A DNA stretch of 32,000 nucleotides. Source: Candidatus Poseidoniaceae archaeon. GTDB taxonomy: Archaea > Thermoplasmatota > Poseidoniia > Poseidoniales > Poseidoniaceae. The notes beneath the pieces are model-generated. The model was not told the origin of the DNA, did no database searches, and saw only the letters and a list, made by a program, of their open reading frames with translations. Each line of letters begins with the position of its first letter. Positions within the stretch are counted from its first letter, which is position 1. The stretch spans positions 360,001 through 392,000 of the forward strand of contig CALSTM010000002.1 in NCBI GenBank assembly GCA_943789275.1, written 5' to 3'. Position numbers and translations under genes: made by a program. Positions 8,029 through 24,221 of the stretch are shown here, one piece after another.

Positions 8029-8652
8029 TCACTTGTTCTTGAAACGCTTGAGACGGAAGGTTTCTTCGCGTTCCATCTCTTCAAGTCGCAGTTGGATAAA
8101 CACCCGTGCTTCTTCCAATTCTGGAATAACTTTGTACTCCAAAGCATTGACACGTCGCTTGGTTGCTTCAATCTCTTGCAAAAGGCGCTTTAGTGTAGCT
8201 TCCATTTCAGATGCCTTGACAATCTTCTCAATGAGATTGCCAAATGACTCGCCGGCCTCATCGATGTATGGGGACGAACCGATAAATCCGACACCACGTT
8301 CTTTGAATGTAGATTTGAGGTTCGTTCCGCTGACGCTTGGGACGACGACACCCATAATGTTGCGTCGCTCAACTTCAACTTCGGGATGGCCGGTGTTTGC
8401 AATGGCTGCTGCACGCACAGCAAGACCACCTTCGATTGCGTTTGCAAGGTCGATACGTTGCTTAGCCATACGGTAGGTTGCGGTCAAGTCGCGCTTAGCT
8501 TCAATCATGTCGGAGAGCAATGAACGGAATTCGTGAAACAAACCGTCTCTCTTCATTTTCAGCAATTTGTAACCGTTCTTGGTTTGCTTAATCCGACCTT
8601 TGAGTTTAATCAACTCGCTTCGGGTTGGTTTGATATCGAGTGCCATGTTCAT
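8029..8652 (-). CDS. atpD: A-type ATP synthase subunit D (central stalk)
   Basis: MNMALDIKPTRSELIKLKGRIKQTKNGYKLLKMKRDGL... has a typical AtpD/NtpD N-terminus and coiled-coil ends. It is the last gene of the HIKECFABD order. Confidence 0.92.
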   Translation of the reverse strand: MNMALDIKPTRSELIKLKGRIKQTKNGYKLLKMKRDGLFHEFRSLLSDMIEAKRDLTATYRMAKQRIDLANAIEGGLAVRAAAIANTGHPEVEVERRNIMGVVVPSVSGTNLKSTFKERGVGFIGSSPYIDEAGESFGNLIEKIVKASEMEATLKRLLQEIEATKRRVNALEYKVIPELEEARVFIQLRLEEMEREETFRLKRFKNK

Positions 8653-8682
8653 TCACCTCCTTTTCAGTTGTAACGAAGTTGT

Positions 8683-10062
8683 TCAAGCTCGGTTGTCAGG
8701 ATGGTACTTGTCAATCCACTTCTGGTCAAGACGGACCAGGTACTTTGTATCGATTGCAGACATGAGATTCCAGCACAAATCGAGTGTTTCTTCAATGGAA
8801 CGGTCTTCATCACGGGTTTGGCGAAGGAACTTGTCTTCAAACACTCCGGAGAAGTCGAGCAATTGCTTGTCTCGCTCGTTCAATGCATCTTCACCGACAA
8901 TGGCGACAAGTCCACGAAGTTCGCGACCTTGTGCGTATGCAGCATACATTTGGTCCGAAACAGACTTGTGATCTTCACGAGTGGTCTTTTCACCAATACA
9001 TGAACCCATCAATCGTGAAAGAGACGGTAGAACATTGATTGGCGGATAGATACCCTGTTGGTGCAATTCACGTGAAATAACGATTTGTCCTTCAGTAATG
9101 TATCCAGACAAGTCAGGAATTGGGTGCGTGATATCGTCACCAGGCATGGTAAGAATCGGGAATTGAGTGATTGAACCCTTCTTGTTCTTGATAATTCCAG
9201 CACGTTCGTAGAGCATAGCCAAATCGGTATACATGTAACCGGGATATCCACGTCGTCCTGGAACTTCTTCACGAGCAGCACCAATTTGACGAAGAGCGTC
9301 ACAGTAGTTGGTCATGTCCGTGTAGATAACCAGAACGTGGTAATCTTTCTCGAAGGCAAGGTATTCTGCAGCGGTCAAAGCAAGACGAGGCGTAATGATA
9401 CGCTCGACAGCCGGGTCGTCAGCAAGGTTAACGAACAGAACCGCATTTTCGAGAGCACCTGTTCGCTCCAAATCGGAACGGAAGAAATTGTATTCTTCAG
9501 CGGTGATACCCATAGCACAAAAGACAACAATAAATTCTTCATCGGAATCCTTGAGCTTTGCTTGACGAGCAATTTGCAGTGCAATATCGTTGTGCGGTAG
9601 ACCGGATGCAGAGAAAATCGGCAACTTCTGTCCACGAACAAGACTTGTACAAAGGTCAATTGCAGAGACACCAGTTTGGATGAAATCGTTTGGACTCTGT
9701 CGGCTGTATGGGTTAATTGCAGCACCAATGATGTCTGCCTTTTCTTCAGCAACAATCTCTGGTCCGCCGTCACGAGGACGGCCTGCACCGTCGAGAATTC
9801 GACCGACGAGATCGGTGCTTACAGGGAGTTTGAAAACATCTCCCATGAAAGTTACACCGGATTCTCGGTCAATCTTGGAGGTTCCTTCGAAAACTTGGAC
9901 AATCACAAGGTCATCCGAGGTGTCGAGAACTTGTCCGTTCTTGATGGTTCCATTGGAGAGTCGTAGGGTAACGATTTCACCAAATGCTACGGGTTCTGTT
10001 TTGTTCAAAAAGACCAGAGGTCCTTTCACGTCAGTAATGGTTCGGTATTCTTTTCCAGTCAT
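8683..10062 (-). CDS. atpB: A-type ATP synthase subunit B (non-catalytic)
   Basis: [19 protein letters not shown]..., [44 protein letters not shown] chose the ATG at 10062 (GAGGAGAGG upstream) rather than the track start at 10107, which would overlap atpA. Confidence 0.95.
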
Positions 10063-10075
10063 GATATTCCTCTCC

Positions 10076-11815
10076 TCAGTTTTCCTCCACCGTTTCGGCG
10101 ATTTCATCGGTCATTTTCTTGACCATTCCATCGATAATGTCGATGTATCCCTTCTCGAAACGACCACGCATGAGGTCGGAACGAGCTGGAACGTTGACAA
10201 CATCGTTGAGTAGAGCACCGCCTGCCATAGCAGACTTTGCAGCTTCTTGGAACGATAGGATTGCTTTGGCCATTTGGTATTGAAGGTGAATGTCACAGTA
10301 AGCATCGACTTCGTGGAATCCATTTTGTTGCAAAAAGAATTCACGAATCATTCGAGCGACTTCAAGAGTCAGTTGTTGGTCGGTTGGTAGAGCATCCGAA
10401 CCGACCAATTGGACAATTTCTTGCAACTCAGATTCAATCTGAAGCAAACCGCTGATTTGAGTTCGGATTTCAGGGAAATCTTGAGCAATGTTGTCGCGGA
10501 ACCATTGATCCAGACTTTGCGGATACAATGAGTACGAGTTCAGCCAGTTGATCGCAGGGAAGTGCCGTTGTCGGGCAAGACCAGCATCCAATCCCCAGAA
10601 AACCTTGACAATACGAAGTGTTCCTTGGGATACAGGTTCAGAAATATCTCCACCGGGTGGAGAAACAGCGCCAATCACAGTGACTGAGCCGTCATCGCCG
10701 TTCAAAGTCTCGACACGGCCGGCACGTTCATAGAACTCAGCAATTCGAGATGAAAGGTAAGCAGGATATCCTTCTTCACCAGGCATTTCTTCAAGTCGAG
10801 ACGAAATTTCACGCATTGCTTCAGCCCAGCGAGAGGTCGAGTCAGCCATCAAAGCAACGTCATAACCCATATCTCGGAAGTATTCCGCAATGGTAATTCC
10901 TGTGTACACAGATGCTTCACGAGCTGCAACAGGCATGTTTGAGGTGTTTGCAATCATGACGGTTCGTTCCATCAAAGGCTTGCCAGTGTTCGGGTCAATC
11001 AAGTGAGGGAATTCGTCCAAAACTTCGGTCATTTCGTTTCCACGCTCACCGCATCCAATGTAAACAACGAGTTGTGCATCGGAATACTTTGCCAAAGACT
11101 GTTGAGTAACTGTCTTTCCAGAACCGAACGGTCCAGGAATACCTGCTGCACCACCCTTAGCAAGAGGGAACAAGAAATCAAGAATTCGCATTCCGGTAAT
11201 GAGAGGTGTTTCTGGTGCGTACTTCTGTTGGAAAGGTCGAGGGGTACGGACTGGCCACTTCTGCATCATCTGCATTTCAGTGCCGTTATCGAGCACACAG
11301 ACGGTTTGAGTGACGTTGAAGTCACCTGATTCAATCGATTTCACAACACCACTGACGGTAGGAGGTACCATGATTTTGTGAACGATTGTTTCGGTTTCTT
11401 GGACGTGCCCAATAACTTGGCCACCGACGACGGAGTCGCCAACTGCGACTTGAGGTTCAAAAGTCCAAATCTTTTCGAGGTCGAATGCATCTGCGTCAAC
11501 ACCACGGGTGATGAAAACGCCCATTTCCTCTTCCAGAGTAGGGAGAGGTCGCTGAATACCGTCGTAAATTTGAGTCAAGAGACCGGGTCCCAAAGAAACT
11601 GAAAGTGTTTCTTGAGTGTTCAACACAGGTTCACCCGGTCGAATACCAGAGGTATCTTCGTACACTTGGATGACGGCTTTGTCGCCGTGCAGTTCAATCA
11701 CTTCACCCATCAAACCTTCTTCGCCCACGCGAACAACGTCGTACATTGCAGCTTTCATTCCAGTTGCGGTTACAACCGGCCCCGATATTCGGTAAATTAC
11801 TCCTTCATTACTCAT
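10076..11815 (-). CDS. atpA: A-type ATP synthase catalytic subunit A
   Basis: Walker [41 protein letters not shown], and the A-subunit-specific non-homologous region. I chose the ATG at 11815 (GGAGG 8 nt upstream); the track start is 11830. Normal length, no intein. Confidence 0.95.
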
Positions 11816-11843
11816 TTTTATTTCCTCCATTTGGTTTGGAATC

Positions 11844-12143
11844 TTACTTCCACAGGTCGACTCCTATTGCCTTACGAATTGTGTCACGCAAGGTGGTGTC
11901 TTCTTCCGTACCGATGCCAAGAACGGTAGGAGAGACGGATGCCGAGAGTTGGTCACGAAGACGCTCCGGCAGCGTTGATAGGATTGTGGAGTCGACCACA
12001 ACAATCCCAACGCTCTTTGAATTGAGTAGAGATTTGAAGACAGAGATCATTGCCTCTTCGCCTTCGGGGTTAAACAGGGTATCAATACCAGCAAGTTGGA
12101 ATCCAAGGGTGAATTCTGGTGTTCCTACGATTGCGATATCCAT
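11844..12143 (-). CDS. atpF: A-type ATP synthase subunit F
   Basis: 99 aa, [20 protein letters not shown]...; typical AtpF size, sequence and operon position. Confidence 0.9.
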
Positions 12144-12153
12144 TTATTTCACC

Positions 12154-13197
12154 TCACAGTATGTGTGCCTCGATGACTTCGTTCGATAGACCTGCCAAGC
12201 GGCCACGGACAATAAAGCGCAGGTCATTCACTTCTTGGACCTTCATGGCCACGTAATGAATAACCGGTAGTGCAGAGACTGGGTGGAGATAGCTCATGCG
12301 CTTCATGATGTTGTGTTCACGTTCTTTGAACCAAGTAACGACTGGGTCAAGACTGTTCATTTCTTTCGACTGGGAGAGGACTGCTTCAAATGCTGGGAAA
12401 TCAAAACGGTTTGAGCCACGTAGTAAATCCATAGCAGCATCACTGCCGCCAGCCGCAATCGAAGAGAATGCTCGTGTAGGTATTAATCGTCCACCTGGAA
12501 TCAACAAAGGTACAACATCATCAGTCGAGATGCCAACGTGTTGAGCCTCAAGTATGTTCATGAGGTTACGGTGGTCGATTTCAGCACCAATCAGTTCCTT
12601 GAGGAAACGGTTCACTGGGCCTTTTCCTTCAATGGACTTCAAAGCCTGTTTGAAGTAATGACGATCAAGAGCATCTTCATAGTCACTTAATCGCCCATCT
12701 TCTGAAACGGCGTTCAAGTCGGAACCAAAGGATTTGCGACGCATCTGAACGACTGCAGAGCGCAAATCATCAGCGTTTTCAATAATTTTCAACCATGGAG
12801 TGTTGATGTCATTTAATTCGGGAAGAATCGAATGAGCAACTTTTTCCAATTCCACTTCGTTAACAACCGAACGTAGGACAACTTTGGCGTTGTAGTACTC
12901 AAATCTTGAAGTGTATGTCTCGACAATACCCCGGATTTTACCATTACACAGCGAAAGCATCTTTTCAAGTTCGTGCTCTAAGTTGTGAGTGAGGGCTGCT
13001 TCAACCAAATCTCCGCCTTTCATTTGACCTGCGTACAAGTCAATTTCTGTACGGTAACCGATTTCTCCGACTGCAACAGTCAGTTGTTCGGGTGATTGGC
13101 TGATCAGTTGGCGTAGCCTGGCACGGTCCGCGAGTTTCTGCCGACGTGATTTCGCACGGGCAGCAACATAAGGTGTGTTTCCAAGCATTACCATCAT
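12154..13197 (-). CDS. atpC: A-type ATP synthase subunit C (V-type d homolog)
   Basis: 347 aa and helical, N-terminus YVAARAKSRRQKL..; its position between atpE and atpF matches archaeal operons. Confidence 0.85.
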   Translation of the reverse strand: MMVMLGNTPYVAARAKSRRQKLADRARLRQLISQSPEQLTVAVGEIGYRTEIDLYAGQMKGGDLVEAALTHNLEHELEKMLSLCNGKIRGIVETYTSRFEYYNAKVVLRSVVNEVELEKVAHSILPELNDINTPWLKIIENADDLRSAVVQMRRKSFGSDLNAVSEDGRLSDYEDALDRHYFKQALKSIEGKGPVNRFLKELIGAEIDHRNLMNILEAQHVGISTDDVVPLLIPGGRLIPTRAFSSIAAGGSDAAMDLLRGSNRFDFPAFEAVLSQSKEMNSLDPVVTWFKEREHNIMKRMSYLHPVSALPVIHYVAMKVQEVNDLRFIVRGRLAGLSNEVIEAHIL

Positions 13198-13203
13198 TAT
13201 CCC

Positions 13204-13767
13204 TCAGTCAAAAAGTATTGAATTTATTTCAGCGAGTTGATCGTTCCAAGAAGATTCAAGGAGCGTATCAAAGCGCATGTCGTACGATACCGAACCATCT
13301 GGTGATTCAAGTACAAAGCCACCGAGTCCGTCAATAGCGTCACCAACCTTTCGCTTCCCAGAAAGTTCTGAGAGTGCTTTGCGGTCAACTTCGACTGGAC
13401 GGATCGAGTAGTCATCGCCACCAATCTTGTCTGCCTTGGCCATCAAGGACTTGAGCAAACTTGCTCGTCCAGAGAGTTTGGGGCTTCCAAGTGTATCGCT
13501 GGCCGATTGCAAGGTCTCATCGAGAACCTTGCGCCGAGCAACGAGTATTTCTTTTTGGTTCGCTTGGCGAGCGCTGGCAACGACTTCACGGGCAATTTGA
13601 CTTGCTTCACGTTCAGTTCGAGCTGATGCTTCCGAGCGAATGGCGTCAGACTTCGAGGTTGCTTCGGCAAGAATTGCCTTGGCTTCCTCATTGGCTGCTT
13701 TGACCATAGCCGAGGCCTCAGCCTCAGCAGATTTTGCGATATCCTTTGCGAGTGTTTCAAGCGTCAT
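13204..13767 (-). CDS. atpE: A-type ATP synthase subunit E (peripheral stalk)
   Basis: 187 aa with a long A/E/K-rich N-terminal helix and a globular C-terminal domain (GGFVLESPDGSVSYDMRFDTLL). Confidence 0.88.
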   Translation of the reverse strand: MTLETLAKDIAKSAEAEASAMVKAANEEAKAILAEATSKSDAIRSEASARTEREASQIAREVVASARQANQKEILVARRKVLDETLQSASDTLGSPKLSGRASLLKSLMAKADKIGGDDYSIRPVEVDRKALSELSGKRKVGDAIDGLGGFVLESPDGSVSYDMRFDTLLESSWNDQLAEINSILFD

Positions 13768-13830
13768 ATGTATTCCTCTTTGTGTTTATTTTTCACTTAC
13801 TGGGTTGCCCCAGAATTGTTGCCTTCTTCC

Positions 13831-14142
13831 TCACAGGAAGAGAGGCAATGCACCGAGAATCACGATGGATTCCGGCAACGCAGTGAAAATGAGTGCAACA
13901 CCGAATTTGCTTCCGTCTTCAGCAAGCATGCCGACAGCTGCGCTGCCAATGGCTGCTTGAGAGAGACCTGCACCAATAGCTGCAAGTCCTAGGGCAATTC
14001 CAGCGCCGATAGCAGCGTAGCCCGATCCGTCGGATTGGGTTAGTTCTGCATCTTCAGCTGCTGCGACACCTTGAGCAACCATGGTGATGGCTGCCAAAAG
14101 GATCAATGTTCTTAGGCTCATTTTTAGGGTATTTACGTTCAT
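13831..14142 (-). CDS. atpK: A-type ATP synthase proteolipid subunit K (c), two-helix type with an N-terminal signal-peptide-like extension
   Basis: A G/A-rich hairpin AAIGAGIALGLAAIGAGLSQAAIGSAAVGMLAE plus FGVALIFTALPESIVILGALPLFL with a carboxylate E in helix 2. About 30 residues precede it (MSLRTLILLAAITMVAQGVAAAEDAEL). Confidence 0.88.
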   Translation of the reverse strand: MNVNTLKMSLRTLILLAAITMVAQGVAAAEDAELTQSDGSGYAAIGAGIALGLAAIGAGLSQAAIGSAAVGMLAEDGSKFGVALIFTALPESIVILGALPLFL

Positions 14143-14172
14143 ATTTACTACCTCCGTTTTTTGTCCGTTGGA

Positions 14173-16527
14173 CTATGATTTATTCTCCACATGGAGATTA
14201 CGGCCACCGAGCGGTGCAAAAGCACGGCCGGACCCGTCGTAGAATTTGCCCATCCATTCCACAAAGTGGAGACGGGCAGCGTGAATCGTTGGGGAAAGAA
14301 TTCCCAGTGCGATTGCAAACACTTGAATGAAGAGGAACAAGACCAAGCAGAGCAGTCCAACAAGAATACCGGAGATTCCACCGCTTGTGAATGCGTCAAC
14401 CATTGGCTCAAAGCCCATAGTGATGGACACTTCTGCAATTTTAACGCCGGCAACACCGACTGCCATGATACGCAGATAAGAGAGTGTGTTGGCAAGCAAT
14501 CCAAATGTTTCGATTGGGCCCATGATGAGGCCGCCTGCCCATCCGAACTTCTCGAAGATAGCCAAACCGATGATGAGGCTGATTATGCCAACAATGAGCA
14601 GGACCGTCCATATTTGGAAGTCGAACAAATCATTGTAACCTGAAACCATGTTTCGGCACTGCATGAAACCGCCGATAAGGATGAGGAGCCAAGAGCCCTT
14701 TTCGAAGTATGCTGCTGCTGCACCGTGTGCCTTGTAGACGTTGATCAAGCCGAGCATGTATCCGATGAAGATGTGAATTGCACCAAGGTAGATTGAGAGG
14801 ATGACATATTCTTGCAATCCGTGCCCTGCAGATGCTCGGTGGAACGGCATGTGAAGGCCTCCAAGGTTGAGCAGGTCTGCAAGTGCCTTTGGAACGTGGA
14901 CGTTGTGATAGGTCCAGTCATAGAAGGCAAAGAAAGGTGAATCAGCGCCCATTTGCCCTGTTTCGTCCCAAACGAAACCAAAACCTTCGGCGAAAATGAT
15001 ACCCCAAATGACACACCATACGCCCATCCAACGAAGGATAGTAAGTCCTTTTTGTGCCATTGGGTCAACGGCAAATGCCTTACTGCCGAGCCATCCAGCG
15101 AGGAGAAGAAGAACAATTCCATATCCCCAATCTCCCAAAATCATTCCGTAAATGAATGGGAAGGTCATCATAATGAGCGTCGTTGGGTCAAACGTGCCGT
15201 ACTTCGGGCGTCCGACCAAATCAACCATCAGTTCGAACGGTTCAGAAGTTGAGCCGTTCGTGTACTGGATAGGTGGCTCGATGTCGTGGCCTCCGTCATC
15301 GTGAGCAGGAGCGTTACGAATACGCGTCAATGTAATGTCGAGTTCTGGGAGATTGATTTTCCCGTCACCGTCGAGGTCAACAGCCGAAACGAGTTTACCC
15401 ATTTCCCATGGAGGGAGATTTGCGATGTTTGCGTTCTTGAGCGCCGTTTGGAACTCATAGCAGTCAATAAGCCCGGAGTCATCCAAGTCTATCGCATTGA
15501 AAAATTGGAACACAGTCTGATTTGACTTGTTCAAATAGTTCGAGAGCATCATGAGTTCTTCGGGGTCCGAAGAGCCGACGTCTTCATGTTCACCGTGGTC
15601 GTGATGATGATGGCCACCTTCGTAGGCTTCAACGGTGACGTGAGAGGCAACCTTTGCGAGTTCAGCCTCGACCATAGATGCCTGGTCGGTTGGGACCCAT
15701 CCGTCAAGAGCAAATGCCTGGTTACTGACCGCAACCAATGTTGGTGCTGTAAAAACGGCAGCCTCACGAGTAAGGTATTCTTTGGCAGCGACCAGCTTCC
15801 GCCCGTTTCGAAGCGTCCATGCATCAAGTGCAGACTGTGTGTCCGTGATTTTCGATTCCAAGAGAGAAATTTCTGAGAGGAGTTTTTTCGACATCTCAGC
15901 AGGTGAGCCCTCTCCGGAAGGGATTTGAACTGGTTTCGAGCCCAACTCTGCCATGCAGATTTGAACTTCAGCGGAGTGTTCTGAACGGCATGCAACGGCG
16001 ACAAGTCCACCAGCAGCATGCAGTTCAATCTCGCTAAGAATGTCCGCAAAAACTTCCTTTGCCTTCGAAGCACGACGAGTTTCACCTACGAATACTTCGA
16101 GACCTTCGTATCCTGCCATCAATTCGAGAGGTATGTCCAAAGGAGCGAGACGATCCAAAACTTGGAATTGCTCTTCGGAGGATGAAATTTGGGCTTCAGC
16201 ATCACGGATGGTATCGATGTATTCGAGGGCTGTAGTAATTTTCTCCTCAAAACCAGCAATCATCTTAGCCACTTCCTTGTGAGGCATTGGCCCATCGGAG
16301 TTTACGGCCTGAACGGCCGAAGAAACTGCTTGCACCTTGACAAGTAGGCTGCTGATTGCGTTGGCTTCATCGGAACTCATCGAAGAACCGACGCCGATGC
16401 CGTCTTCAAATCGCCCATACTCTTCAATGTGGATGCACGAAAGGTCGGTGCAAAGGCGGAGAATTTCTTCGAGCTTCTCTACAGGAGCCGCTACTGTAAG
16501 ACGGGACATGTCAGAAGTAGCAAACAT
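14173..16527 (-). CDS. atpI: A-type ATP synthase subunit I (stator a-subunit) carrying a His-rich plus double EF-hand insertion
   Basis: 784 aa. The N-terminal cytoplasmic domain is followed by PFELMVDLVGRPKYGTFDPT and a multi-TM C-terminal domain with LSYLRIMAVGVAG (conserved Arg helix). The insert at aa ~304-417 contains GGHHHHDHGEHED, DLDDSGLIDCYE and DLDGDGKINLPE. Confidence 0.92.
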   Translation of the reverse strand: MFATSDMSRLTVAAPVEKLEEILRLCTDLSCIHIEEYGRFEDGIGVGSSMSSDEANAISSLLVKVQAVSSAVQAVNSDGPMPHKEVAKMIAGFEEKITTALEYIDTIRDAEAQISSSEEQFQVLDRLAPLDIPLELMAGYEGLEVFVGETRRASKAKEVFADILSEIELHAAGGLVAVACRSEHSAEVQICMAELGSKPVQIPSGEGSPAEMSKKLLSEISLLESKITDTQSALDAWTLRNGRKLVAAKEYLTREAAVFTAPTLVAVSNQAFALDGWVPTDQASMVEAELAKVASHVTVEAYEGGHHHHDHGEHEDVGSSDPEELMMLSNYLNKSNQTVFQFFNAIDLDDSGLIDCYEFQTALKNANIANLPPWEMGKLVSAVDLDGDGKINLPELDITLTRIRNAPAHDDGGHDIEPPIQYTNGSTSEPFELMVDLVGRPKYGTFDPTTLIMMTFPFIYGMILGDWGYGIVLLLLAGWLGSKAFAVDPMAQKGLTILRWMGVWCVIWGIIFAEGFGFVWDETGQMGADSPFFAFYDWTYHNVHVPKALADLLNLGGLHMPFHRASAGHGLQEYVILSIYLGAIHIFIGYMLGLINVYKAHGAAAAYFEKGSWLLILIGGFMQCRNMVSGYNDLFDFQIWTVLLIVGIISLIIGLAIFEKFGWAGGLIMGPIETFGLLANTLSYLRIMAVGVAGVKIAEVSITMGFEPMVDAFTSGGISGILVGLLCLVLFLFIQVFAIALGILSPTIHAARLHFVEWMGKFYDGSGRAFAPLGGRNLHVENKS

Positions 16528-16537
16528 TGGGAACGCC

Positions 16538-16909
16538 TCACTTTGAAGTTACTGAATCAAGTAGACTCTTGACTGCTTTTTCTTTTCGACTGGATGCAGA
16601 CGATTCAATGCTTTCGACAATCGATGCACCGTCTTTGAGGACTGCATCTGCTTCTTTGCCTGCTTTTGAGCGAGCTGCATCGAGTGTAGCCTGAGTTTCG
16701 CTTACTGAATCTTCAGTAGCGCCAGTAACAAGTGCTGCGGCCTCACGTCGGGCATCGGCAGTGATTTTGTTGGACTCTGTTTGAGCGGAAGAAAGTCGCT
16801 TTTCAGCAGACTGCTCAGCTTCTTTGATTTTTCGGAGGACATCTTTCATACCCAAGTAAATCACCAGTGTTCCGCCGAATAGAAAGAGGTTTATGAGGCT
16901 AATGGGCAT
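16538..16909 (-). CDS. atpH: A-type ATP synthase subunit H (peripheral stalk), possibly with an N-terminal hydrophobic helix
   Basis: MKDVLRKIKEAEQSAEKRLSSAQTES... is a typical AtpH helix and starts at internal Met21 (16849). The open frame continues upstream to ATG 16909, adding MPISLINLFLFGGTLVIYLG. The start is ambiguous. Confidence 0.8.
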   Translation of the reverse strand: MPISLINLFLFGGTLVIYLGMKDVLRKIKEAEQSAEKRLSSAQTESNKITADARREAAALVTGATEDSVSETQATLDAARSKAGKEADAVLKDGASIVESIESSASSRKEKAVKSLLDSVTSK

Positions 16910-17775: not shown

Positions 17776-18579
17776 TCAAGCGATACGTTCGACGGTCTCT
17801 GGAGTGATTCCTTCTTCGGGAGTCACACGGAACACGAGAATTTTGAGATTCTCTGGAGCGTTTCGGAATTTCGATACAATCATCGAGGTTTCAAAGTCCG
17901 TACCGATGGTTCGGACTTGGAACGAGAGAACCATATCAGCAATCGATGCGAGTTCTTGTTTGACCGTGGGGTCAAGACCGTTGGTTGAAACAGAGACAAG
18001 AAGCAATCCTCGATTCAACTGTGCATGCGCTTGCAGCATACGGACCATAGCGATAACTCGCGCTGGATCTTCACGTTGCAAGAAGAAATCGAGACTGTCA
18101 ATAACGGCTCTAAAGTAAGGTCCCAGAGCCATGATTTCATTGGTGACTTCGGTAAGATAGTCCTGCGTGTTGTCATCAACGAAACGTGTCTGAGCAAGCC
18201 GGCGGATATCGTCAAGACGGAACCCTTCCAAACGATATCGGCTGGCAAGAAGCTCTCGCTCAAGGACGGTCGAATTGTATTCTTCCCCAATGGTGCGGAC
18301 GTTGATGTCAAGCGGCCAGTCGTATTTTTGGAAGATACGAATGATTTCTTGTTGACCTTCATTGGTCGAGATGTAGATGGTGTTTTCTGCTTCTTCAGCA
18401 GGAGATGTAAACTGTTTAGCAAACAATTCGCTGCCAGAACCGGTATCGGTAAAGGCTACCATCATGAATCCACGCGGAACTCCTCCGTGCATTTCATTGT
18501 CGAACTTCGGGACACCAAAGGAGCCAACTTTACCGAAGAACTCTTCGTCTTCTGGGTCGAATTCAATTTTTCTTGCCAT
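17776..18579 (-). CDS. KaiC/RecA-fold paralog with a degenerate Walker A (predicted non-catalytic)
   Basis: FGVPKFDNEMHGGVPRGFMMVAFTDTGSGSELFAKQF aligns by eye to the KaiC-like gene at 19198..19995, but GSGKT is replaced by GSGSE. A Walker-B-like RAVIDSLDFF and the C-terminal ADMVLSF...SKFRN block are retained. Confidence 0.7.
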   Translation of the reverse strand: MARKIEFDPEDEEFFGKVGSFGVPKFDNEMHGGVPRGFMMVAFTDTGSGSELFAKQFTSPAEEAENTIYISTNEGQQEIIRIFQKYDWPLDINVRTIGEEYNSTVLERELLASRYRLEGFRLDDIRRLAQTRFVDDNTQDYLTEVTNEIMALGPYFRAVIDSLDFFLQREDPARVIAMVRMLQAHAQLNRGLLLVSVSTNGLDPTVKQELASIADMVLSFQVRTIGTDFETSMIVSKFRNAPENLKILVFRVTPEEGITPETVERIA

Positions 18580-18589
18580 AACAATAACC

Positions 18590-19201
18590 TCAGTTGATGA
18601 GTACTTGACCTCGGTCGATTAGATCTGTACAGTAAAGATCAAGATTCGCCAACACAAGCGGTGGAGTTTGGTCCGGTACATTGAGAATTACCGACAGAAC
18701 TTCTCTCTGTCTGAAGGTGTTAATGAAGGTATGAAGATATTCCGCAAGCATCCGGTCATCGTTGTAAATTGCGAGGGCATTGACGCTGTCCAAGAACACG
18801 AAATTGCGAGCAGAGGTGGTCATTCGAAGGATATACAAGGTTCGTAAAAGTACGGATTCAAGCATAATCGGACTGTCGACGAAGTGGATGTTGGTGTAGG
18901 CAACATCGGTACCTCCAAGAATACCGGAGGAGACTAAATCCACGAATTGGATGCGAGAAATATCCTCATCAGTTAGACCAATGGCTTTGAATTCTTCAAT
19001 TCGTTCAGCAGCGCCGACACTGGCGCAAATGTATACGCCACCCATCTCAAACATCTGCATCAAAGGAATAAGAGTACTCGCAGTGACGTTGAATGCGTTG
19101 GAATTGCCGCATCGGACTTGGATGGAACTGTTGAGGCTAACATCCGCTGCAAGTTGCTCAGCAATGCGGTCATCGAGTACGAGATTCGTGTACATTATCA
19201 T
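18590..19201 (-). CDS. Short RecA/KaiC-fold-like protein lacking a P-loop
   Basis: 203 aa. LDDRIAEQLAADVSLNSSIQVRCGNSNAFNVT sits where KaiC-like proteins have LD..L.GG...GS..L..G..GSGKT. A Walker-B-like NFVFLDSVNALAIY is present. Its start overlaps the upstream gene's stop by 4 bp (ATGA). Confidence 0.55.
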   Translation of the reverse strand: MIMYTNLVLDDRIAEQLAADVSLNSSIQVRCGNSNAFNVTASTLIPLMQMFEMGGVYICASVGAAERIEEFKAIGLTDEDISRIQFVDLVSSGILGGTDVAYTNIHFVDSPIMLESVLLRTLYILRMTTSARNFVFLDSVNALAIYNDDRMLAEYLHTFINTFRQREVLSVILNVPDQTPPLVLANLDLYCTDLIDRGQVLIN

Positions 19202-19995
19202 CCACCTACCTTGTTTGTTTTGTCATGTTGAGCACCCCATTTGAGCATAGGTGTCAGCATAACGCCGAGAGGCGTCAATTCAATAGCGTGCTTTGCACGG
19301 CTGTGAGAAGTACCTCGCATCTTCACGACTTGTAGGAACCTTAGAAGGTGGCCCATACGCTCGACGTCACCCATGACAATAATGCCGTCTGCAATCGCTT
19401 CTTCGACCCCAAAGGAAGACCAATGAGCGTTTTCAGTCGCTGAAGTGATTTCAGAGATAAGAATGGTCGTACAGCCCAAAGAAGCAAGCTTCTTCCCGAG
19501 CGTGAAGAGGAAGTCACGAATCAATTGTTCCGACTTAATCTTGTAACAAAGAGTGGTGACTGAATCGATAACCAGGCGAGTAGCACCAATTTCGTGAACG
19601 ATGTTAATGATGGCTTTAATCAAGGCGTGAACGTCATCCAAGTCGAACGATGCTTTATCCAGACCAAGCCATGAATACAGCACATCCATATCGAAAACGT
19701 TGATTTTTCCAGAGTCAACCATTTTCATATCAAAAAAGGCATACTGGCGAATATTCTCAAGCAACTTGATCGAAGGTTCGGTTGCAGTAAAGTGTGCACA
19801 CGATTCTGGGAACTTAGCGAGCGCACCCCTTACGAGGAACTCCATAGCCAATGTGGTCTTACCAGAACCGCACGTACCTGCAGCGAGAACTGTAGAACCG
19901 TGAGGGATTCCACCTCGAAGGATTTCGTCCAAGCCATGAATACCCGTAACGCAGCGGTCACGAGTGTAATTAGATGTTGACTGCATGGGATTCAA
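19198..19995 (-). CDS. Single-domain KaiC-like (RecA-superfamily) ATPase with intact motifs
   Basis: GIHGLDEILRGGIPHGSTVLAAGTCGSGKTTLAMEFLVRGA (Walker A at 19855-19878), Walker B RLVIDSVTTL, and LQVVKMRGTSHS (KaiC-family KMRG block). Confidence 0.85.
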   Translation of the reverse strand: MNPMQSTSNYTRDRCVTGIHGLDEILRGGIPHGSTVLAAGTCGSGKTTLAMEFLVRGALAKFPESCAHFTATEPSIKLLENIRQYAFFDMKMVDSGKINVFDMDVLYSWLGLDKASFDLDDVHALIKAIINIVHEIGATRLVIDSVTTLCYKIKSEQLIRDFLFTLGKKLASLGCTTILISEITSATENAHWSSFGVEEAIADGIIVMGDVERMGHLLRFLQVVKMRGTSHSRAKHAIELTPLGVMLTPMLKWGAQHDKTNKVGG

Positions 19996-21142: not shown

Positions 21143-21269
21143 GAACTGTCGTACCGTTCGGCGATTGAAGAGGTTGCCGCATGGAGTCTGTTCAAATCGT
21201 CGAATTATCGCATCAATGCCCCCTTCGGGGGCGATGAGTCTTTGAAGCCCCGCTGTGAGGCACCTGTCA

Positions 21270-24221
21270 ATGTCGCGCCGCGCTGTTCATGAATCTGGTC
21301 GCAAAAGCGGAAGCATCTGCTTTGTTCTCATCCTTCTCTTGGCATCATTGTCCGGAGTGATATCCCTTCCAGGCGTATCTGCGAGCGAAAGTGGTGACCT
21401 TGGACTGGTGGCTACCAATTCACCGGTTGAAGATTCATGGAGTTCATCTTGGGAGAACATCAGGTTCAATGCGACCATCACCAACGAGGGTTTGCAATCC
21501 ATCGCCAGCAGAGGCCTTTGGTGGCATGTATGTGAAGGGGAAATCGATGCGACCAATTGTAAATCAAATTACGATGACCGAGGAAGTTTTTCTCTCCCAA
21601 CAATATATCCAGGCACAACGTTGGATTTTGAATCCCCGAATGTGTGGAATCCGTCGGGTGATGAAGGGGTTTTTACCATCGTTTACGCGTTTACCCTCAC
21701 CGACCAAGACCCATCCGATGATGTCTTGATGTTTCGAATCAATGTGACGCAATCGTTTGTAGACCTGAGCGTTGATTCAACCTATGAACCAACCAGTACC
21801 TTACTCAATCTCGGTTACGACGGCAATCAAGCGATTTTGAATACCGGTACAAATTACGACATGAACGCTAAAGGAACCGTAACTGCCTGCGGCACATGTA
21901 ACTTCGTTGCCCAGATTGGATGGCAGCTGTGGTCCAGTGACGGACTCATCCTCATTTCTGAAGCATCGACCAGTGTTACGAATTTGCCCTCATGGGGCGG
22001 CATTTCTCCGTTCACACAAGCCATGCCTGCCTTCAGCCACAACGATCAAGGGAACTTCCTTCTAAAGTGGGGGCTGATTGAGAGTTCAGGAACGCCTTAC
22101 GGCGACCTTGTCCCCTCAAACGACCTCTCTGAAACCCTTATCGTTCTTGACGACACAATTGATATTCAAGCCACTTCGATGGCACCAAACCATGACCCAA
22201 CATCGGTGAACTATTTCTACGGAGAGAACATGGTTCGTTCAATCATAACAAACAACGGATATGTCACCGTCTCCTCGACGCTCGCCACCTTCCAAGTGTA
22301 CGACCAACTTGGCGAAATAGAAGATGAAGCGCAATGCCCAATCAATGATTTACATCCGGGTGATGAGCAGATTTGTTTGTTCAACATCACCCTCATCGGC
22401 TCTCTCAAAACACTCACAATCAACATACCCTCTGTCTTTGCCGAGGGCAGTGACTCCAAAGCAGGAGATAACGTTTTGACTGAAAATGTAGACCTTATTG
22501 CTGGTAATATCGACGCTTCAATCACTCAAAGCAACTCGCAAGGAATTTACACGACCGGTGATGACATCATCATGATTGCGCGTACCGGCGATACTGCTGC
22601 CGCTCCACTCAACTTTTCCTGGTTCAGAGCAGGGATCATCCCTCTTGGACACGGCCAAGTTCTGAACCTTTCCGGCTCAGTATTTGGTCTCGGCGACCAC
22701 AAGGTGACCCTACGGGTAACCGACGCATTTGGTGAATTAGAGTCCGTGCACAAAGAAATTACGCTGTTCAACTATGTTTCACTCGATAACGGGGATTTAT
22801 TCACTGGAGAAGCAGTCACCCGCTCCCTTTCGTATTTCGAACATGAATCAATTTTACCGGTACTGGGTACTCAATACGGTATCGGAGAAGGAAGAGAACC
22901 TCTCCTCTTGCTCTCGTTCAATGTACTGTCCAGTGCTGATAATTCCAATAACACGGGCATGGATCGTATGAACATACATCTGAACACTTCAAATCTCTTA
23001 CCGAGTAACATCCCGTTGGATTCTGTTGATGTACGATTCTTAACCTCGCTTGATGATAATATATGGACATTTATTGACGATTACTCGAAAAACATGGATA
23101 ACTCATTCGACATCACTCTGTATCAAAATGGAGTTGTCCTCATTATTGGCAATGCCCCACCTGCAAACATATCCAGTGGGGAACTTGAAAGAAGCCAACT
23201 CCAAGGCGGTAGTCTTGAATTGCAATGGTCGCCTGTGGGAGACATTGACAACCCCTATATTGGCTCCTGGAACATCTACAAACTTACCGTATCAAACAGT
23301 GCAGGCACCGTATTCCCAAATCCTTATCCAGATTTCAACCCCATAGTTTGGGGGCAACTCACTTCGACCACATTGGTTGCTTCAATCCCCCCAAACTCGA
23401 ATTCATGGATTGACCCTTCACCTCTGCCGACCGGAATTTGTGCATCCTACGCCATCATGCCTGCCGACAGAGAAGGTTCACCAGATTTCCTCCACATCGA
23501 AATTACACGCGACGATGATGGACAACCTGTAGCCTTCTGTGGTGATGCTGTGGCGCCGGATAAAGTGGTCACGAACATGCAAGTTACAACTTCCTTCACC
23601 AACAACTCTGATTGTTACAAAATCATGAACGATTGGTCCATGTGCTACGACGTCAACATGTCGTGGGTATGGCCAGATCATGAAACAACTGGAAATGTCT
23701 CATGGAACCTCTATCGTACCGACCAACGCCCCGATGAAATTGATATTTCCTTCCTCACACCTGTTGAAGAAGGACTTACCGGTATTGCTGGGGAGAAGGG
23801 ATACTACAACCAAAGCGGAATTAACGATGAAAACATTCGCCCATACCGCACATTTTACTACATTCTCGCTCCTGTCGATTCTGTAGGAAATCAGTTGAAT
23901 GAAGCTGACTATCCGACCAACTCGATACGAGTAACAATCGATGATCAATGGTGGGACTACAACCAGCACCTCATCCCTGAGCCTGAACCTGAACCTGAAC
24001 CACCGCTTGGCGTAGAATGGCTCGGAACACTCAAAGATTACACAGAAGTGGAAGAGTTCCAGTTGACGGGTGCTGTTGCATTGATGACGCTGGTGGTCAG
24101 CATGATTTTCTTACCGCTTATCATCAAGAAGAGAAAGCGATTGGCAAGGGTCATGAAGGCTCGTAAAAACCGAACAAATTCACAATTAACCGCGCAGGAT
24201 CTTGAAGACTTCTTTGACTGA
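21270..24221 (+). CDS. Large secreted surface protein (~984 aa) with a signal peptide, CARDB/Ig-like and FN3-like repeats, a PE-repeat stalk, a C-terminal TM anchor and a basic tail
   Basis: MSRRAVHESGRKSGSICFVLILLLASLSGVISLPGVSASE is a signal peptide. Repeated beta-rich segments include NATITNEGLQSIAS and SIITNNGYVTVSSTLATFQVYD. At least 12 NxS/T sequons. The C-terminus reads PEPEPEPEPP...LTGAVALMTLVVSMIFLPLIIKKRKRLARVMKARKNR. I prefer ATG 21270 to the track's GTG at 21255. Confidence 0.8.
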   Translation: MSRRAVHESGRKSGSICFVLILLLASLSGVISLPGVSASESGDLGLVATNSPVEDSWSSSWENIRFNATITNEGLQSIASRGLWWHVCEGEIDATNCKSNYDDRGSFSLPTIYPGTTLDFESPNVWNPSGDEGVFTIVYAFTLTDQDPSDDVLMFRINVTQSFVDLSVDSTYEPTSTLLNLGYDGNQAILNTGTNYDMNAKGTVTACGTCNFVAQIGWQLWSSDGLILISEASTSVTNLPSWGGISPFTQAMPAFSHNDQGNFLLKWGLIESSGTPYGDLVPSNDLSETLIVLDDTIDIQATSMAPNHDPTSVNYFYGENMVRSIITNNGYVTVSSTLATFQVYDQLGEIEDEAQCPINDLHPGDEQICLFNITLIGSLKTLTINIPSVFAEGSDSKAGDNVLTENVDLIAGNIDASITQSNSQGIYTTGDDIIMIARTGDTAAAPLNFSWFRAGIIPLGHGQVLNLSGSVFGLGDHKVTLRVTDAFGELESVHKEITLFNYVSLDNGDLFTGEAVTRSLSYFEHESILPVLGTQYGIGEGREPLLLLSFNVLSSADNSNNTGMDRMNIHLNTSNLLPSNIPLDSVDVRFLTSLDDNIWTFIDDYSKNMDNSFDITLYQNGVVLIIGNAPPANISSGELERSQLQGGSLELQWSPVGDIDNPYIGSWNIYKLTVSNSAGTVFPNPYPDFNPIVWGQLTSTTLVASIPPNSNSWIDPSPLPTGICASYAIMPADREGSPDFLHIEITRDDDGQPVAFCGDAVAPDKVVTNMQVTTSFTNNSDCYKIMNDWSMCYDVNMSWVWPDHETTGNVSWNLYRTDQRPDEIDISFLTPVEEGLTGIAGEKGYYNQSGINDENIRPYRTFYYILAPVDSVGNQLNEADYPTNSIRVTIDDQWWDYNQHLIPEPEPEPEPPLGVEWLGTLKDYTEVEEFQLTGAVALMTLVVSMIFLPLIIKKRKRLARVMKARKNRTNSQLTAQDLEDFFD
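23976..24005 (+). repeat. Hexanucleotide (CCTGAR)n tandem repeat encoding PEPEPEPEPP
   Basis: cct gag cct gaa cct gaa cct gaa cca ccg, read directly from the sequence. It lies inside the surface-protein CDS just before the TM anchor. Confidence 0.85.

What the first reader, a model, noticed from the sequence alone, without database searches (positions are those of the whole stretch)
15277..15618. His-rich tract plus two canonical EF-hand loops inserted into ATP synthase stator subunit I
AtpI here is 784 aa. A ~115-aa insert sits between the end of the cytoplasmic N-terminal domain (..ASHVTVEAYEGG) and the conserved pre-TM1 block (EPPIQY..PFELMVDLVGRPKYGTFDPT). It contains GGHHHHDHGEHEDVGSSDPEE. 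It also contains two 12-residue loops that fit the EF-hand consensus at positions 1, 3, 5, 6, 8 and 12: DLDDSGLIDCYE (15454-15489) and DLDGDGKINLPE (15343-15378). Each loop is flanked by helix-like segments, and a further HDDGGHD follows. The N-terminal domain of subunit I/a is the collar that holds the E-H peripheral stalks, and in V-ATPases it is a regulatory hub. A Ca2+ or metal sensor grafted there could couple ion signals to ATPase assembly or activity. I do not know of a described A/V-type a-subunit with an EF-hand insertion.
Basis: partly seen in the sequence, partly recalled or inferred. Interest (0 to 1): 0.72.

Follow-up and report, generated by a model that had tools for sequence, protein, structure and literature searches.

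The report
Calcium-binding module in archaeal ATP synthase stator
One sub-lineage of the abundant ocean archaea called Marine Group II has a well-conserved pair of calcium-binding EF-hand motifs spliced into the flexible hinge of its ATP synthase stator subunit, which suggests, but does not prove, that calcium acts directly on this enzyme.

Summary
AtpI (14173-16527, minus strand, 784 aa) carries two canonical EF-hand loops. They score above Pfam cut-offs and fold in AlphaFold2 as a classic EF-hand pair.

The His/Asp-rich tract is not part of the insert. It is an older, disordered hinge linker that is also present in orthologs without EF-hands and in more distant outgroups. A module of about 97 aa (a conserved helix plus two EF-hands) was inserted into that linker.

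The insert is not an assembly artefact. It occurs in 31 species-level genomes and more than 120 protein clusters from independent sources. EF-bearing AtpI forms one monophyletic clade inside Poseidoniaceae (bootstrap 100/100), consistent with a single gain and no loss among the sampled genomes.

All Ca-ligand positions are invariant or conservatively substituted in 145 sequences. dN/dS is 0.04, as low as in the membrane domain.

I found no published description. A second membrane-anchored protein 14 kb away gained an EF pair in the same lineage.

The most likely role is a cytoplasmic Ca2+-responsive element at the stator hinge. Ca2+ binding and any regulatory effect remain untested.

The parts
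14173..16527 (-). atpI, subunit I/a of an A-type (A1AO) ATP synthase, 784 aa
   Evidence: ORF. Pfam V_ATPase_I 3.9e-28. PDB subunit I/a matches, including the essential-Arg motif LSYLRIMAVG aligned to E. hirae VSYTRLMALG. R686 is invariant in a 90-sequence alignment.
15625..16527 (-). N-terminal cytoplasmic domain (a_sol, residues 1-301). It ends with beta-strand 296-301.
   Evidence: AF2 secondary structure with pLDDT about 80-95. Its role as the collar for the peripheral stalks is established knowledge, summarised in bioRxiv 10.1101/2020.02.13.946640.
15565..15618 (-). N-side His/Asp/Glu/Gly-rich tether (residues 304-321), predicted disordered. This is the ancestral hinge linker, not inserted material.
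   Evidence: pLDDT below 50 at 306-319. It is present in EF-less orthologs and outgroups. dN/dS is 0.16, with composition conserved.
15304..15594 (-). Inferred inserted segment (about residues 312-408, about 97 aa). The boundaries are uncertain by a few residues because the flanks are low-complexity.
   Evidence: It appears as a single clean gap in all EF-less orthologs, with no other gaps around it.
15523..15561 (-). Conserved helix preceding the EF pair (residues 323-335, ELMMLSNYLNKSN)
   Evidence: AF2 helix 323-335. E324, L325, L328 and L332 are 145/145; M327 and Y331 are 144/145.
15433..15513 (-). EF-hand 1 (residues 339-365). Ca loop DLDDSGLIDCYE = residues 347-358 = window 15454-15489.
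   Evidence: Pfam EF-hand_1/6/7. Loop positions 1, 3, 5, 6 and 12 are invariant and position 9 is D/E in 145 sequences. AF2 shows helix, beta-bridge 353-355, helix.
15313..15402 (-). EF-hand 2 (residues 376-405). Ca loop DLDGDGKINLPE = residues 384-395 = window 15343-15378.
   Evidence: Pfam EF-hand_5/7. Loop positions 1, 5, 6, 9, 10, 11 and 12 are invariant and position 3 is D/N. AF2 shows helix, beta-bridge 390-392, helix.
15280..15312 (-). C-side tether (residues 406-416, including HDDGGHD). This is the remainder of the ancestral His/Asp linker.
   Evidence: pLDDT below 50 at 407-414. It aligns with the C-terminal half of the His tract of EF-less orthologs.
14173..15279 (-). Membrane domain (residues 417-784), starting with the conserved pre-TM1 block PPIQY..PFELMVDLVGRPKYGTFDPT
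   Evidence: Aligns from residue 417-419 to E. hirae subunit I residue 335 and Thermus subunit I residue 318. dN/dS is 0.039.
8029..16909 (-). A-type ATP synthase operon atpH-I-K-E-C-(F)-A-B-D that contains the gene
   Evidence: Pfam hits for G/H, C-ring, E, AC39, A, B and D subunits. The same order, with atpF, is seen in syntenic loci.

Best explanation
A compact EF-hand pair, preceded by a conserved helix (residues 323-405), was inserted once into the pre-existing disordered His/Asp-rich hinge linker of AtpI. The event happened in the ancestor of a sub-lineage of Poseidoniaceae (Marine Group II-a archaea). That linker joins the cytoplasmic stator arm (a_sol) to the membrane-embedded ion-channel domain. 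The module is cytoplasmic, sits close to the membrane, and hangs on two flexible tethers of roughly 12-21 residues.

Shown here: it is a genuine EF-hand pair with every Ca-ligand position intact, a single ancient gain, retained in all sampled descendants, and under purifying selection as strong as the membrane domain.

Inferred: it binds Ca2+ in the sub-micromolar to micromolar range typical of canonical loops. On binding, it changes conformation, possibly capturing or releasing its own conserved upstream helix. That would alter the effective length or posture of the hinge, or contacts with nearby rotor and stator parts (subunit C/d, the c-ring, the proximal E-H stalk). The result would be that cytoplasmic Ca2+ modulates coupling or rotation of the ATP synthase. 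One plausible use is as a brake against wasteful ATP hydrolysis, because in Ca-rich seawater cytoplasmic Ca2+ should rise when the membrane is de-energised.

My confidence that it is a functional, Ca-binding-competent EF domain fixed by selection is about 0.9. My confidence that its role is regulatory Ca2+ sensing of the enzyme is about 0.4.
For: - EF-hand HMMs score above gathering cut-offs. Profile hits go to CDPK, calmodulin and centrin sensor EF pairs at E=1e-12 to 1e-8.
- The AF2 full-length and insert-only models show a folded helix-loop-helix pair with the diagnostic paired beta-bridges (pLDDT 80-92) between disordered tethers. Foldseek hits are exclusively EF-hand proteins.
- Loop ligands are invariant in 145 distinct sequences, and the upstream helix and the PP inter-hand linker are invariant too.
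- dN/dS is 0.037 for the EF pair, against 0.073 for a_sol, 0.039 for the membrane domain and 0.16 for the tethers.
- The indel is clean. The EF+ clade is monophyletic at 100/100 bootstrap and nested in EF- lineages. Only one of the best 150 representatives at 50% identity (5,911 hits in all) has the insert.
- The insertion point aligns to the start of the membrane domain of solved Thermus and E. hirae subunits. In those enzymes a_sol pivots on its proximal lobe, and a_sol-d contact can mechanically block the rotor.
- A fused EF-hand domain with an adjacent helix is known to gate another bioenergetic membrane protein, the ATP-Mg/Pi carrier.
- A second membrane-anchored protein in the same window gained an EF pair in the same lineage, which argues for real cytoplasmic Ca2+ use in this clade.
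Against: - There are no binding or activity data, and the organisms are uncultured.
- AF2 gives no confident placement of the module relative to the rest of the enzyme, and no coordinates were available to test contacts.
- The neighbouring subunits H, K, E and C show no co-gained insert in EF+ genomes, so no partner surface is identified.
- A conserved helix next to an EF pair can also be a permanent cap, as in parvalbumin, which would make the module a structural or buffering element rather than a switch (parvalbumin hits).
- Sister lineages do without the module, so it is not needed for basic function.
- The physiological rationale (Ca2+ as a read-out of de-energisation) is my inference.
Confidence: 0.55

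Rival explanations
1. Structural or buffering module. The EF pair binds Ca2+ constitutively, and its hydrophobic face is permanently capped by the conserved upstream helix, as the AB domain does in parvalbumin. It would act as a rigid spacer or brace that stabilises the hinge, or as a local Ca2+ buffer, with no signalling role.
For: Parvalbumin and oncomodulin are among the sequence and fold matches. The upstream helix is as conserved as the loops. The only EF-hand-like domain previously seen on a V-ATPase, in mEAK-7, turned out to be structural rather than Ca-sensing. The hinge linker varies widely in length across lineages (11-58 aa), so extra mass is tolerated there.
Against: Unlike mEAK-7, all Ca ligands here are intact and invariant. 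The best profile matches are sensor-type EF pairs such as CDPK and calmodulin. The module is held by disordered tethers rather than packed into the stator. A plain spacer would not need dN/dS of 0.04.
Confidence: 0.25
2. Ca2+-dependent docking site. The EF pair recruits another protein to the ATP synthase, for example a regulator, a scaffold, or a second ATP synthase to form dimers, rather than acting on the enzyme itself.
For: EF pairs classically bind target helices. There is a weak dockerin-like signal (Dockerin_1 21.4 bits on the insert). The flexible tethers suit a capture function. A second EF-bearing membrane-anchored coiled-coil protein exists in the same lineage.
Against: The Dockerin score is below its cut-off (22.9) and dockerins are extracellular. 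No candidate partner gene is gained together with the insert in the operon. Two of five EF+ loci examined lack the second EF protein at the syntenic slot.
Confidence: 0.12
3. The functionally important element is the His/Asp-rich linker, acting in metal binding or pH sensing. The EF pair would be a tolerated passenger.
For: The His-rich linker is much more widespread than the EF pair and conserved in composition.
Against: The EF pair evolves about four times more slowly than the His tethers (dN/dS 0.037 against 0.16). It was not lost in any of 31 species-level genomes or 145 distinct sequences. A passenger would decay.
Confidence: 0.04
4. Assembly chimera or annotation artefact.
For: None found.
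Against: The same architecture appears in more than 120 protein clusters from ENA, JGI, NCBI, TARA and Logan. It also appears in 31 GTDB species representatives, including a single-cell genome (L004) and the 2.06-Mb MG-II chromosome CM001443 (L011). The reading frame is continuous, codon-level purifying selection is clear and composition is normal.
Confidence: 0.01

Closest known systems
Canonical A/V-type ATPase subunit I/a (Thermus thermophilus, Enterococcus hirae NtpI, eukaryotic Vph1/a1-a4)
   Same: It has the same two-domain plan: a cytoplasmic a_sol arm that holds the peripheral stalks, plus a C-terminal membrane domain with the essential Arg. It has the same operon context. Sequence homology is clear across both domains.
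   Different: Solved and typical subunits join the two domains by a short linker of about 11-30 residues. Here the linker is 123 residues and contains a folded EF-hand pair. None of the best 150 representatives outside this clade has it.
Regulation of V-type enzymes through a_sol (auto-inhibition of isolated Vo by a_sol-d contact; reversible disassembly in eukaryotes)
   Same: The insert sits at the base of the same mobile arm, whose posture decides whether the rotor is free.
   Different: Known triggers are V1 binding or release, lipids and partner proteins. None is an intrinsic Ca2+-binding domain. No such regulation is described for archaeal A-type synthases in the papers I could search.
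Mitochondrial ATP-Mg/Pi carrier (APC/SCaMC), and the aspartate/glutamate carrier
   Same: A calmodulin-like EF-hand domain is fused in the same polypeptide to a bioenergetic membrane protein. An adjacent amphipathic helix is captured by the Ca-bound EF pair, the 'locking pin'. That is a plausible working analogy for helix 323-335 plus the EF pair.
   Different: It is an unrelated membrane protein, eukaryotic, with four EF-hands at the N-terminus rather than two inserted internally. There is no homology beyond the generic EF-hand fold. Helix capture here is conjecture.
Calmodulin lobes and the CDPK calmodulin-like domain
   Same: These are the best sequence-profile matches (CDPK 1e-12, calmodulin about 1e-8). 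They share canonical 12-residue loops, a paired beta-bridge and a four-helix lobe.
   Different: Here there is only one lobe (two EF-hands). Identity is about 25-30%. The module is embedded in a membrane protein and is archaeal.
mEAK-7 EF-hand-like domain on mammalian V-ATPase
   Same: It is an EF-hand-type fold physically associated with a rotary V-type ATPase.
   Different: mEAK-7 is a separate protein that binds the B, E and A subunits. Its EF-like domain lacks the Ca ligands, does not respond to Ca2+ and is poorly conserved. Here the ligands are invariant and the domain is part of subunit I.

Membership tests
EF-hand (Pfam PF00036 / PF13499 pair) | Family HMM score above the curated gathering cut-off | tested here: met
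   EF-hand_1 scores 29.7 bits on the full protein and 36.2 on the insert (cut-off 25.4). EF-hand_7 pair scores 33.8 on the insert (cut-off 30). EF-hand_6 scores 33.3 (cut-off 25).
EF-hand (Pfam PF00036 / PF13499 pair) | 12-residue loop with oxygen ligands at positions 1, 3, 5 and 12 (Glu), Gly at 6 and a hydrophobic residue at 8 | tested here: met
   Loop 1 has D-D-S-G-(I/L/V)-E and loop 2 has D-(D/N)-D-G-I-E at positions 1, 3, 5, 6, 8 and 12. All are invariant or conservative in 145 sequences.
EF-hand (Pfam PF00036 / PF13499 pair) | Helix-loop-helix units paired through a short antiparallel beta-bridge | tested here: met
   AF2 prediction only: helices 339-345/356-365 and 376-383/393-405, with bridges at 353-355 and 390-392, pLDDT 80-92. 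Foldseek top hits are EF pairs with TM about 0.55, but none reaches E<=1e-3.
EF-hand (Pfam PF00036 / PF13499 pair) | Actual Ca2+ binding | not testable with these tools
   This needs ITC, 45Ca overlay or Tb3+ luminescence on recombinant residues about 318-410.
A/V-type ATPase subunit I/a (PF01496 V_ATPase_I) | Family HMM above cut-off, with homology over both the N-terminal and membrane domains | tested here: met
   98.3 bits against a cut-off of 30.7. PDB subunit I/a hits reach 7e-24. A full-length alignment with 89 homologs was built.
A/V-type ATPase subunit I/a (PF01496 V_ATPase_I) | Essential Arg in the conserved S-Y-x-R-(L/I) motif of the membrane domain | tested here: met
   LSYLRIMAVG aligns to E. 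hirae VSYTRLMALG. S683 and R686 are invariant in 90 sequences.
A/V-type ATPase subunit I/a (PF01496 V_ATPase_I) | Encoded within an A/V-type ATPase operon | tested here: met
   atpH-I-K-E-C-(F)-A-B-D. The order is conserved in eight syntenic loci.
Dockerin type I | Family HMM above cut-off, duplicated F-hand segments, extracellular cellulosome context | tested here: not met
   It scores 21.4 bits on the insert and 14.6 on the full protein, below the cut-off of 22.9. The module has full E- and F-helices and lies on the cytoplasmic side by topology.
Calmodulin-type four-EF-hand sensor | Two lobes, four EF-hands | tested here: not met
   Only two loops and one lobe are present.
Self-sequestering EF-hand regulators (ATP-Mg/Pi carrier type); a works-like comparison only | EF domain and a target amphipathic helix in the same chain, with Ca-dependent capture of the helix | tested here: inconclusive
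   A conserved helix (323-335) directly precedes the EF pair. Whether it binds the EF cleft, and whether that depends on Ca2+, could not be tested because no model coordinates were available.

The most novel reading that the evidence does not exclude
[quoted passage not shown] This would be part of a lineage-specific cytoplasmic Ca2+-signalling system in which EF pairs were grafted onto at least two unrelated membrane-associated proteins. If so, it would be the first intrinsic Ca2+-sensing domain in any rotary ATPase, and evidence for calmodulin-style second-messenger logic in an archaeon's core bioenergetics.
Probability: 0.3. Interest if true: 0.82.

Novelty: new variant of a known kind. Interest (0 to 1): 0.62.

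Why it matters
Rotary ATP synthases are among the most conserved machines in biology. Their known regulators (the epsilon subunit, IF1, the zeta subunit, MgADP inhibition, V1-Vo disassembly) do not include an intrinsic Ca2+-binding domain. A-type archaeal enzymes have no well-established regulatory switch at all.

Here a canonical, strongly constrained EF-hand pair sits exactly at the hinge whose posture controls rotor freedom in related enzymes. The organisms make up a large share of surface-ocean archaea. If it senses Ca2+, it links prokaryotic Ca2+ signalling, whose effectors are still poorly defined, directly to energy conversion.

Nature also provides a control: sister Poseidoniaceae lack the module but are otherwise collinear. 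The 97-aa module is small enough to express, titrate and graft into tractable A/V-type enzymes. A second EF-pair gain in the same lineage suggests a broader and datable adoption of Ca2+-binding modules.

Tried and rejected
- **Misassembly.** Rejected, because many independent assemblies show the same architecture.
- **His tract as part of the insertion.** Rejected by alignment with EF-less orthologs and outgroups.
- **Loss in other lineages rather than gain.** Disfavoured. EF+ is one clade nested within EF- lineages, all outgroups are EF-, and the sister group L030-32 shows no loop remnants.
- **Dockerin.** The score is below the cut-off.
- **A co-gained insert in a partner subunit.** AtpH, K, E and C have the same lengths in EF+ and EF- genomes.
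- **Donor of the module.** No other EF ORF matched an insert-derived HMM in 590 kb of Poseidoniales DNA, and the insert's GC and GC3 are unremarkable. That HMM was too narrow: it missed the second EF protein that Pfam later found. That protein is only 31% identical over 65 aa, so it is not an evident donor. I did not run a database search with the insert alone, because only the best 120 hits are listed and AtpI orthologs would fill them.
- **Fold search.** All hits are EF-hand proteins but none reaches E<=1e-3, as expected for a 93-residue domain. I treat it as corroboration only.
- **Docking of the module on the enzyme.** This could not be assessed. The structure tool returns confidence and secondary structure only, and only single chains can be modelled.
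- **The 'N-terminal TM helix' of the 123-aa AtpH ORF.** This is probably a start-codon artefact, since the ortholog median is 103 aa.
- **Literature.** Five full-text searches and four papers read found no description of an EF-hand in an A/V-type subunit I/a. Subscription-only literature was not covered.
Full report
**1. Observation**

The window encodes a 784-aa ORF on the minus strand at 14173-16527.
- GGHHHHDHGEHEDVGSSDPEE = residues 304-324 = 15556-15618.
- DLDDSGLIDCYE = residues 347-358 = 15454-15489.
- DLDGDGKINLPE = residues 384-395 = 15343-15378.
- HDDGGHD = residues 409-415.
- EPPIQY = residues 417-422.

Pfam calls the protein V_ATPase_I (3.9e-28). The 114-aa segment taken alone matches EF-hand_1 (3e-9, 36.2 bits, cut-off 25.4), EF-hand_6, EF-hand_7 pair (33.8 bits, cut-off 30), EF-hand_8 and EF-hand_5. 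PDB calmodulins match residues 306-400 at 4e-8.

**2. Context**

The gene lies in a standard A-type ATP synthase operon, atpH-I-K-E-C-(F)-A-B-D, at 8029-16909 on the minus strand. The closest homologs are labelled Candidatus Poseidoniales, Poseidoniaceae or 'Euryarchaeota archaeon', that is, Marine Group II. The c-subunit carries the LPESxxI motif that Tully 2019 (PMC6336850) reports as diagnostic of MGIIa.

**3. What was inserted, and into what**

I extracted AtpI from 75 of the 79 loci retrieved from GTDB species-representative genomes. They fall into two clean classes:
- About 780-805 aa with both EF loops: 31 genomes. These include a single-cell genome (L004) and the 2.06-Mb MG-II chromosome CM001443 (L011).
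- About 676-699 aa with no EF loop. These include Poseidonia spp. and Ca. Poseidonia alphae.

In the alignment the two classes differ by one gap of about 97 residues, query residues about 312-408. Everything else is collinear.

Both classes carry a His/Asp/Glu/Gly-rich tract at this position, for example VDDHHHHGDHDDHHHEPE-PP in EF-less proteins. The EF module splits that tract into GGHHHHDHGEHED on one side and HDDGGHD on the other. The same His-rich junction occurs in outgroup representatives down to about 30% identity. Most other subunit I proteins have a short acidic linker of 11-30 residues there.

So the His tract is the ancestral hinge linker. It is compositionally conserved and variable in sequence. 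The true novelty is the EF module.

**4. Distribution and polarity**

All 120 best database clusters (98-60% identity; ENA, JGI, NCBI, TARA and Logan sources) have EF-hand Pfam hits.

An exhaustive phmmer search against 1.84 billion representatives at 50% identity found 5,911 subunit I homologs. Among the best 150, only one representative (P0091) matches the query end to end. All the others break at residue about 409-418, and none of them has a canonical EF loop apart from a fragment of the same clade.

I built a neighbour-joining tree on the insert-masked alignment (652 columns, with outgroups). It places all EF+ sequences in one clade nested within EF- Poseidoniaceae, with an EF- sister group (L030-32). 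Bootstrap support is 100/100 for EF+ monophyly and 98/100 for the sister relationship. The outgroups at 36-56% identity are also Poseidoniales or Euryarchaeota by source names.

The simplest history is one insertion with no later loss in the sampled genomes. Misassembly is excluded.

**5. Constraint**

Across 145 distinct EF+ sequences:
- Loop 1 positions 1, 3, 5, 6 and 12 (D, D, S, G, E) are invariant, and position 9 is E or D.
- Loop 2 positions 1, 5, 6, 9, 10, 11 and 12 are invariant, and position 3 is N or D.
- A helix just upstream is (near-)invariant: E324, L325, M327, L328, Y331, L332.
- F340, F342 and F343, and the inter-hand P372-P373, are (near-)invariant too.

Pairwise dN/dS (NG86, unsaturated pairs) is 0.037 for the EF pair. 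It is 0.073 for the N-terminal domain, 0.039 for the membrane domain and 0.16-0.17 for the His tethers. The module is as constrained as the ion-translocating core.

**6. Structure**

AlphaFold2 on a 90-sequence alignment gave mean pLDDT 81.5 and pTM 0.65. The predicted elements around the hinge are:
- the expected a_sol fold, ending in strand 296-301;
- a disordered stretch at 306-319 (pLDDT below 50);
- a folded module: helices 323-335, 339-345, 356-365, 376-383 and 393-405, with beta-bridges at 353-355 and 390-392 (pLDDT about 80-88);
- a second disordered stretch at 407-414;
- then the membrane domain.

The insert modelled alone gives pLDDT 84.9 and pTM 0.75 with the same elements. A profile search of the PDB ranks radial spoke protein 7, CDPK calmodulin-like domains, calmodulin, centrin and parvalbumin. 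Foldseek returns only EF-hand proteins, led by ACF7 EF1-EF2 and calmodulin lobes at TM about 0.55, but no hit reaches E<=1e-3.

The module is therefore a single EF lobe plus one extra helix, tethered on both sides.

**7. Place in the machine and likely mechanism**

Query residues 417-419 align to residue 318 of Thermus subunit I and residue 335 of E. hirae NtpI, the beginning of their membrane domains. By the established topology of A/V-type enzymes, the module is cytoplasmic and membrane-proximal. It sits at the junction between the a_sol arm and the channel domain.

In Thermus, a_sol pivots on its proximal subdomain, and its contact with rotor subunit d mechanically blocks ion conduction in isolated Vo (bioRxiv 10.1101/2020.02.13.946640).

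From this I infer that the module most likely acts as a Ca2+-responsive element. It would change hinge geometry or engage a nearby stator or rotor surface. It could serve as a brake when cytoplasmic Ca2+ rises, which in 10 mM-Ca seawater should accompany de-energisation. That physiological rationale is my own reasoning.

Steps shown: identity, location, single origin and selection. Steps inferred: Ca2+ binding, conformational switching, the target and the physiological logic.

**8. A second EF gain in the same lineage**

Scanning the rest of the window revealed a 414-aa protein at 30599-31843 (minus strand). It has an N-terminal membrane anchor, a long charged coiled coil, a DUF2135/YfaP-like domain and a C-terminal EF-hand pair (EF-hand_7 33.7 bits, cut-off 30; second loop DKDGDGAVSLEE).

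Its close homologs (72-99% identity) all have the EF pair. Homologs at 52-57% identity are about 570-690 aa, carry DUF2135 and have no EF hit.

I then used orthologs of the intervening 988-aa gene to fetch syntenic loci of ±10 kb:

| Locus | AtpI | Gene at the syntenic slot |
|---|---|---|
| window | 784 aa, EF+ | 414 aa, EF+ |
| L084 | 781 aa, EF+ | 414 aa, EF+ |
| L085 | 801 aa, EF+ | 423 aa, EF+ |
| L080 | 800 aa, EF+ | RCC1-repeat gene, 1845 aa |
| L086 | 787 aa, EF+ | 183-aa ORF, then RCC1-repeat gene, 1849 aa |
| L082 | 679 aa, EF- | YfaP-like, 612 aa, EF- |
| L083 | 679 aa, EF- | YfaP-like, 622 aa, EF- |
| L087 | 680 aa, EF- | YfaP-like, 618 aa, EF- |

No mixed state was seen among these eight loci. 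In the EF- version the C-terminal tail is acidic and loop-free between the same conserved flanks. That again looks like an EF pair placed into a disordered acidic segment.

The two EF pairs are only 31% identical, so neither is an obvious donor of the other. This supports a lineage-level adoption of cytoplasmic Ca2+-binding modules, but the sample is small.

**9. Comparison with the known**

The protein is a member of the V_ATPase_I family and its insert is a member of the EF-hand family. All sequence-testable defining features are met, and Ca2+ binding itself is untestable here. It is not a dockerin (below cut-off) and not a four-EF calmodulin.

The only EF-like domain reported on a V-type ATPase in the papers I could search is in the separate protein mEAK-7. 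That domain lacks Ca ligands and does not respond to Ca2+ (PMC9263379). Here the ligands are invariant and the domain is intrinsic to subunit I.

Full-text searches combining EF-hand with Marine Group II, Poseidoniales, archaea, V-ATPase subunit a and A1AO found no description. The main MGII genomics paper discusses only the Na+ motif of AtpK and never mentions calcium. Subscription-only literature and database domain-architecture listings were not checked.

**10. Limits**

- There is no biochemical evidence.
- No model coordinates or multimer modelling were available, so no partner surface is identified.
- Subunits H, K, E and C show no co-gained insert.
- The trees are neighbour-joining trees on one gene.
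- Genome sampling was capped at 80 loci.
- The origin of the module is unresolved.

**11. Verdict**

This is a genuine, selectively maintained EF-hand pair. It was gained once inside the His-rich hinge linker of the stator subunit I in a sub-lineage of Marine Group II-a archaea, and it appears to be undescribed.

It is a new variant of a known machine, not a new kind of system. The regulatory reading is plausible and testable but unproven.

Interest is 0.62. The most novel reading my evidence leaves open is direct Ca2+ control of a rotary ATP synthase as part of a lineage-specific archaeal Ca2+ system, with a probability of about 0.3.

Noticed in passing
window 30599-31843 (-): A second EF-hand protein, 414 aa. 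It has an N-terminal membrane anchor, a long E/R/A-rich coiled coil, a DUF2135/YfaP-like Cys-containing domain and a C-terminal EF-hand pair (EF-hand_7 33.7 bits, above the cut-off of 30; loops DIDGSALLSVEE and DKDGDGAVSLEE). It is only 31% identical to the AtpI EF pair.
   Followed up: partly
loci L080-L087 (syntenic with window about 11-32 kb): The EF states of AtpI and of the YfaP-like gene co-vary. Three loci (the window, L084 and L085) are EF+/EF+, and three (L082, L083, L087) are EF-/EF-, with a 612-622 aa YfaP that has two tandem modules and an acidic tail. In two EF+ AtpI genomes (L080, L086) the slot is replaced by a roughly 1,850-aa RCC1-repeat gene. No mixed state was seen.
   Followed up: partly
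window 15565-15618 and 15280-15312; outgroups P0121-P0132, P0158, P0165, P0221, P0235: A His/Asp-rich, predicted-disordered linker between a_sol and TM1 is widespread in Poseidoniales subunit I and in some more distant lineages, independent of the EF pair. Its function (metal binding, pH sensing or proton handling near the cytoplasmic half-channel) is unknown.
   Followed up: partly
window 13831-14142 (-): The c-subunit AtpK carries a Gln in helix 1 (GLSQAAIGS) and LPESIVI in helix 2. This is the putative Na+-binding signature that Tully 2019 reports for MGIIa.
   Followed up: no
window 16538-16909 (-): The 123-aa AtpH ORF begins with a hydrophobic 20-residue extension (MPISLINLFLFGGTLVIYLG). 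The ortholog median length is 103 aa, so the true start is probably the internal Met at about 16849.
   Followed up: partly
window 21255-24221 (+): A 988-aa protein with no Pfam hit even at E<=1. It has 73 homologs, 97% to 27% identical; the few that carry source names are Poseidoniaceae/Poseidoniales, and every locus fetched for one is Poseidoniales-like. It always sits between the LTD-domain gene and UbiA/CtaA in conserved synteny.
   Followed up: no
window 5402-7954 (-): An 850-aa ORF with no Pfam match at E<=1.
   Followed up: no
window 17776-18579 and 19198-19995 (-): Two KaiC/RecA-like ATPase genes flank a 203-aa gene with no Pfam hit, directly upstream of the ATP synthase operon. The arrangement is conserved in all syntenic loci examined.
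   Followed up: no
locus L014 (CALKHD010000188.1): A contig in a MAG labelled 'uncultured Flavobacteriales bacterium' encodes an EF+ archaeal AtpI 65% identical to the query. This is probably a binning contaminant from a Poseidoniaceae genome.
   Followed up: no
AtpI residues 513-561 (window about 14845-14991): A loop in the membrane domain has lower model confidence (pLDDT 58-74). Its length varies widely among subunit I homologs (22-74 residues; 49 here). It is not specific to the EF+ clade.
   Followed up: partly
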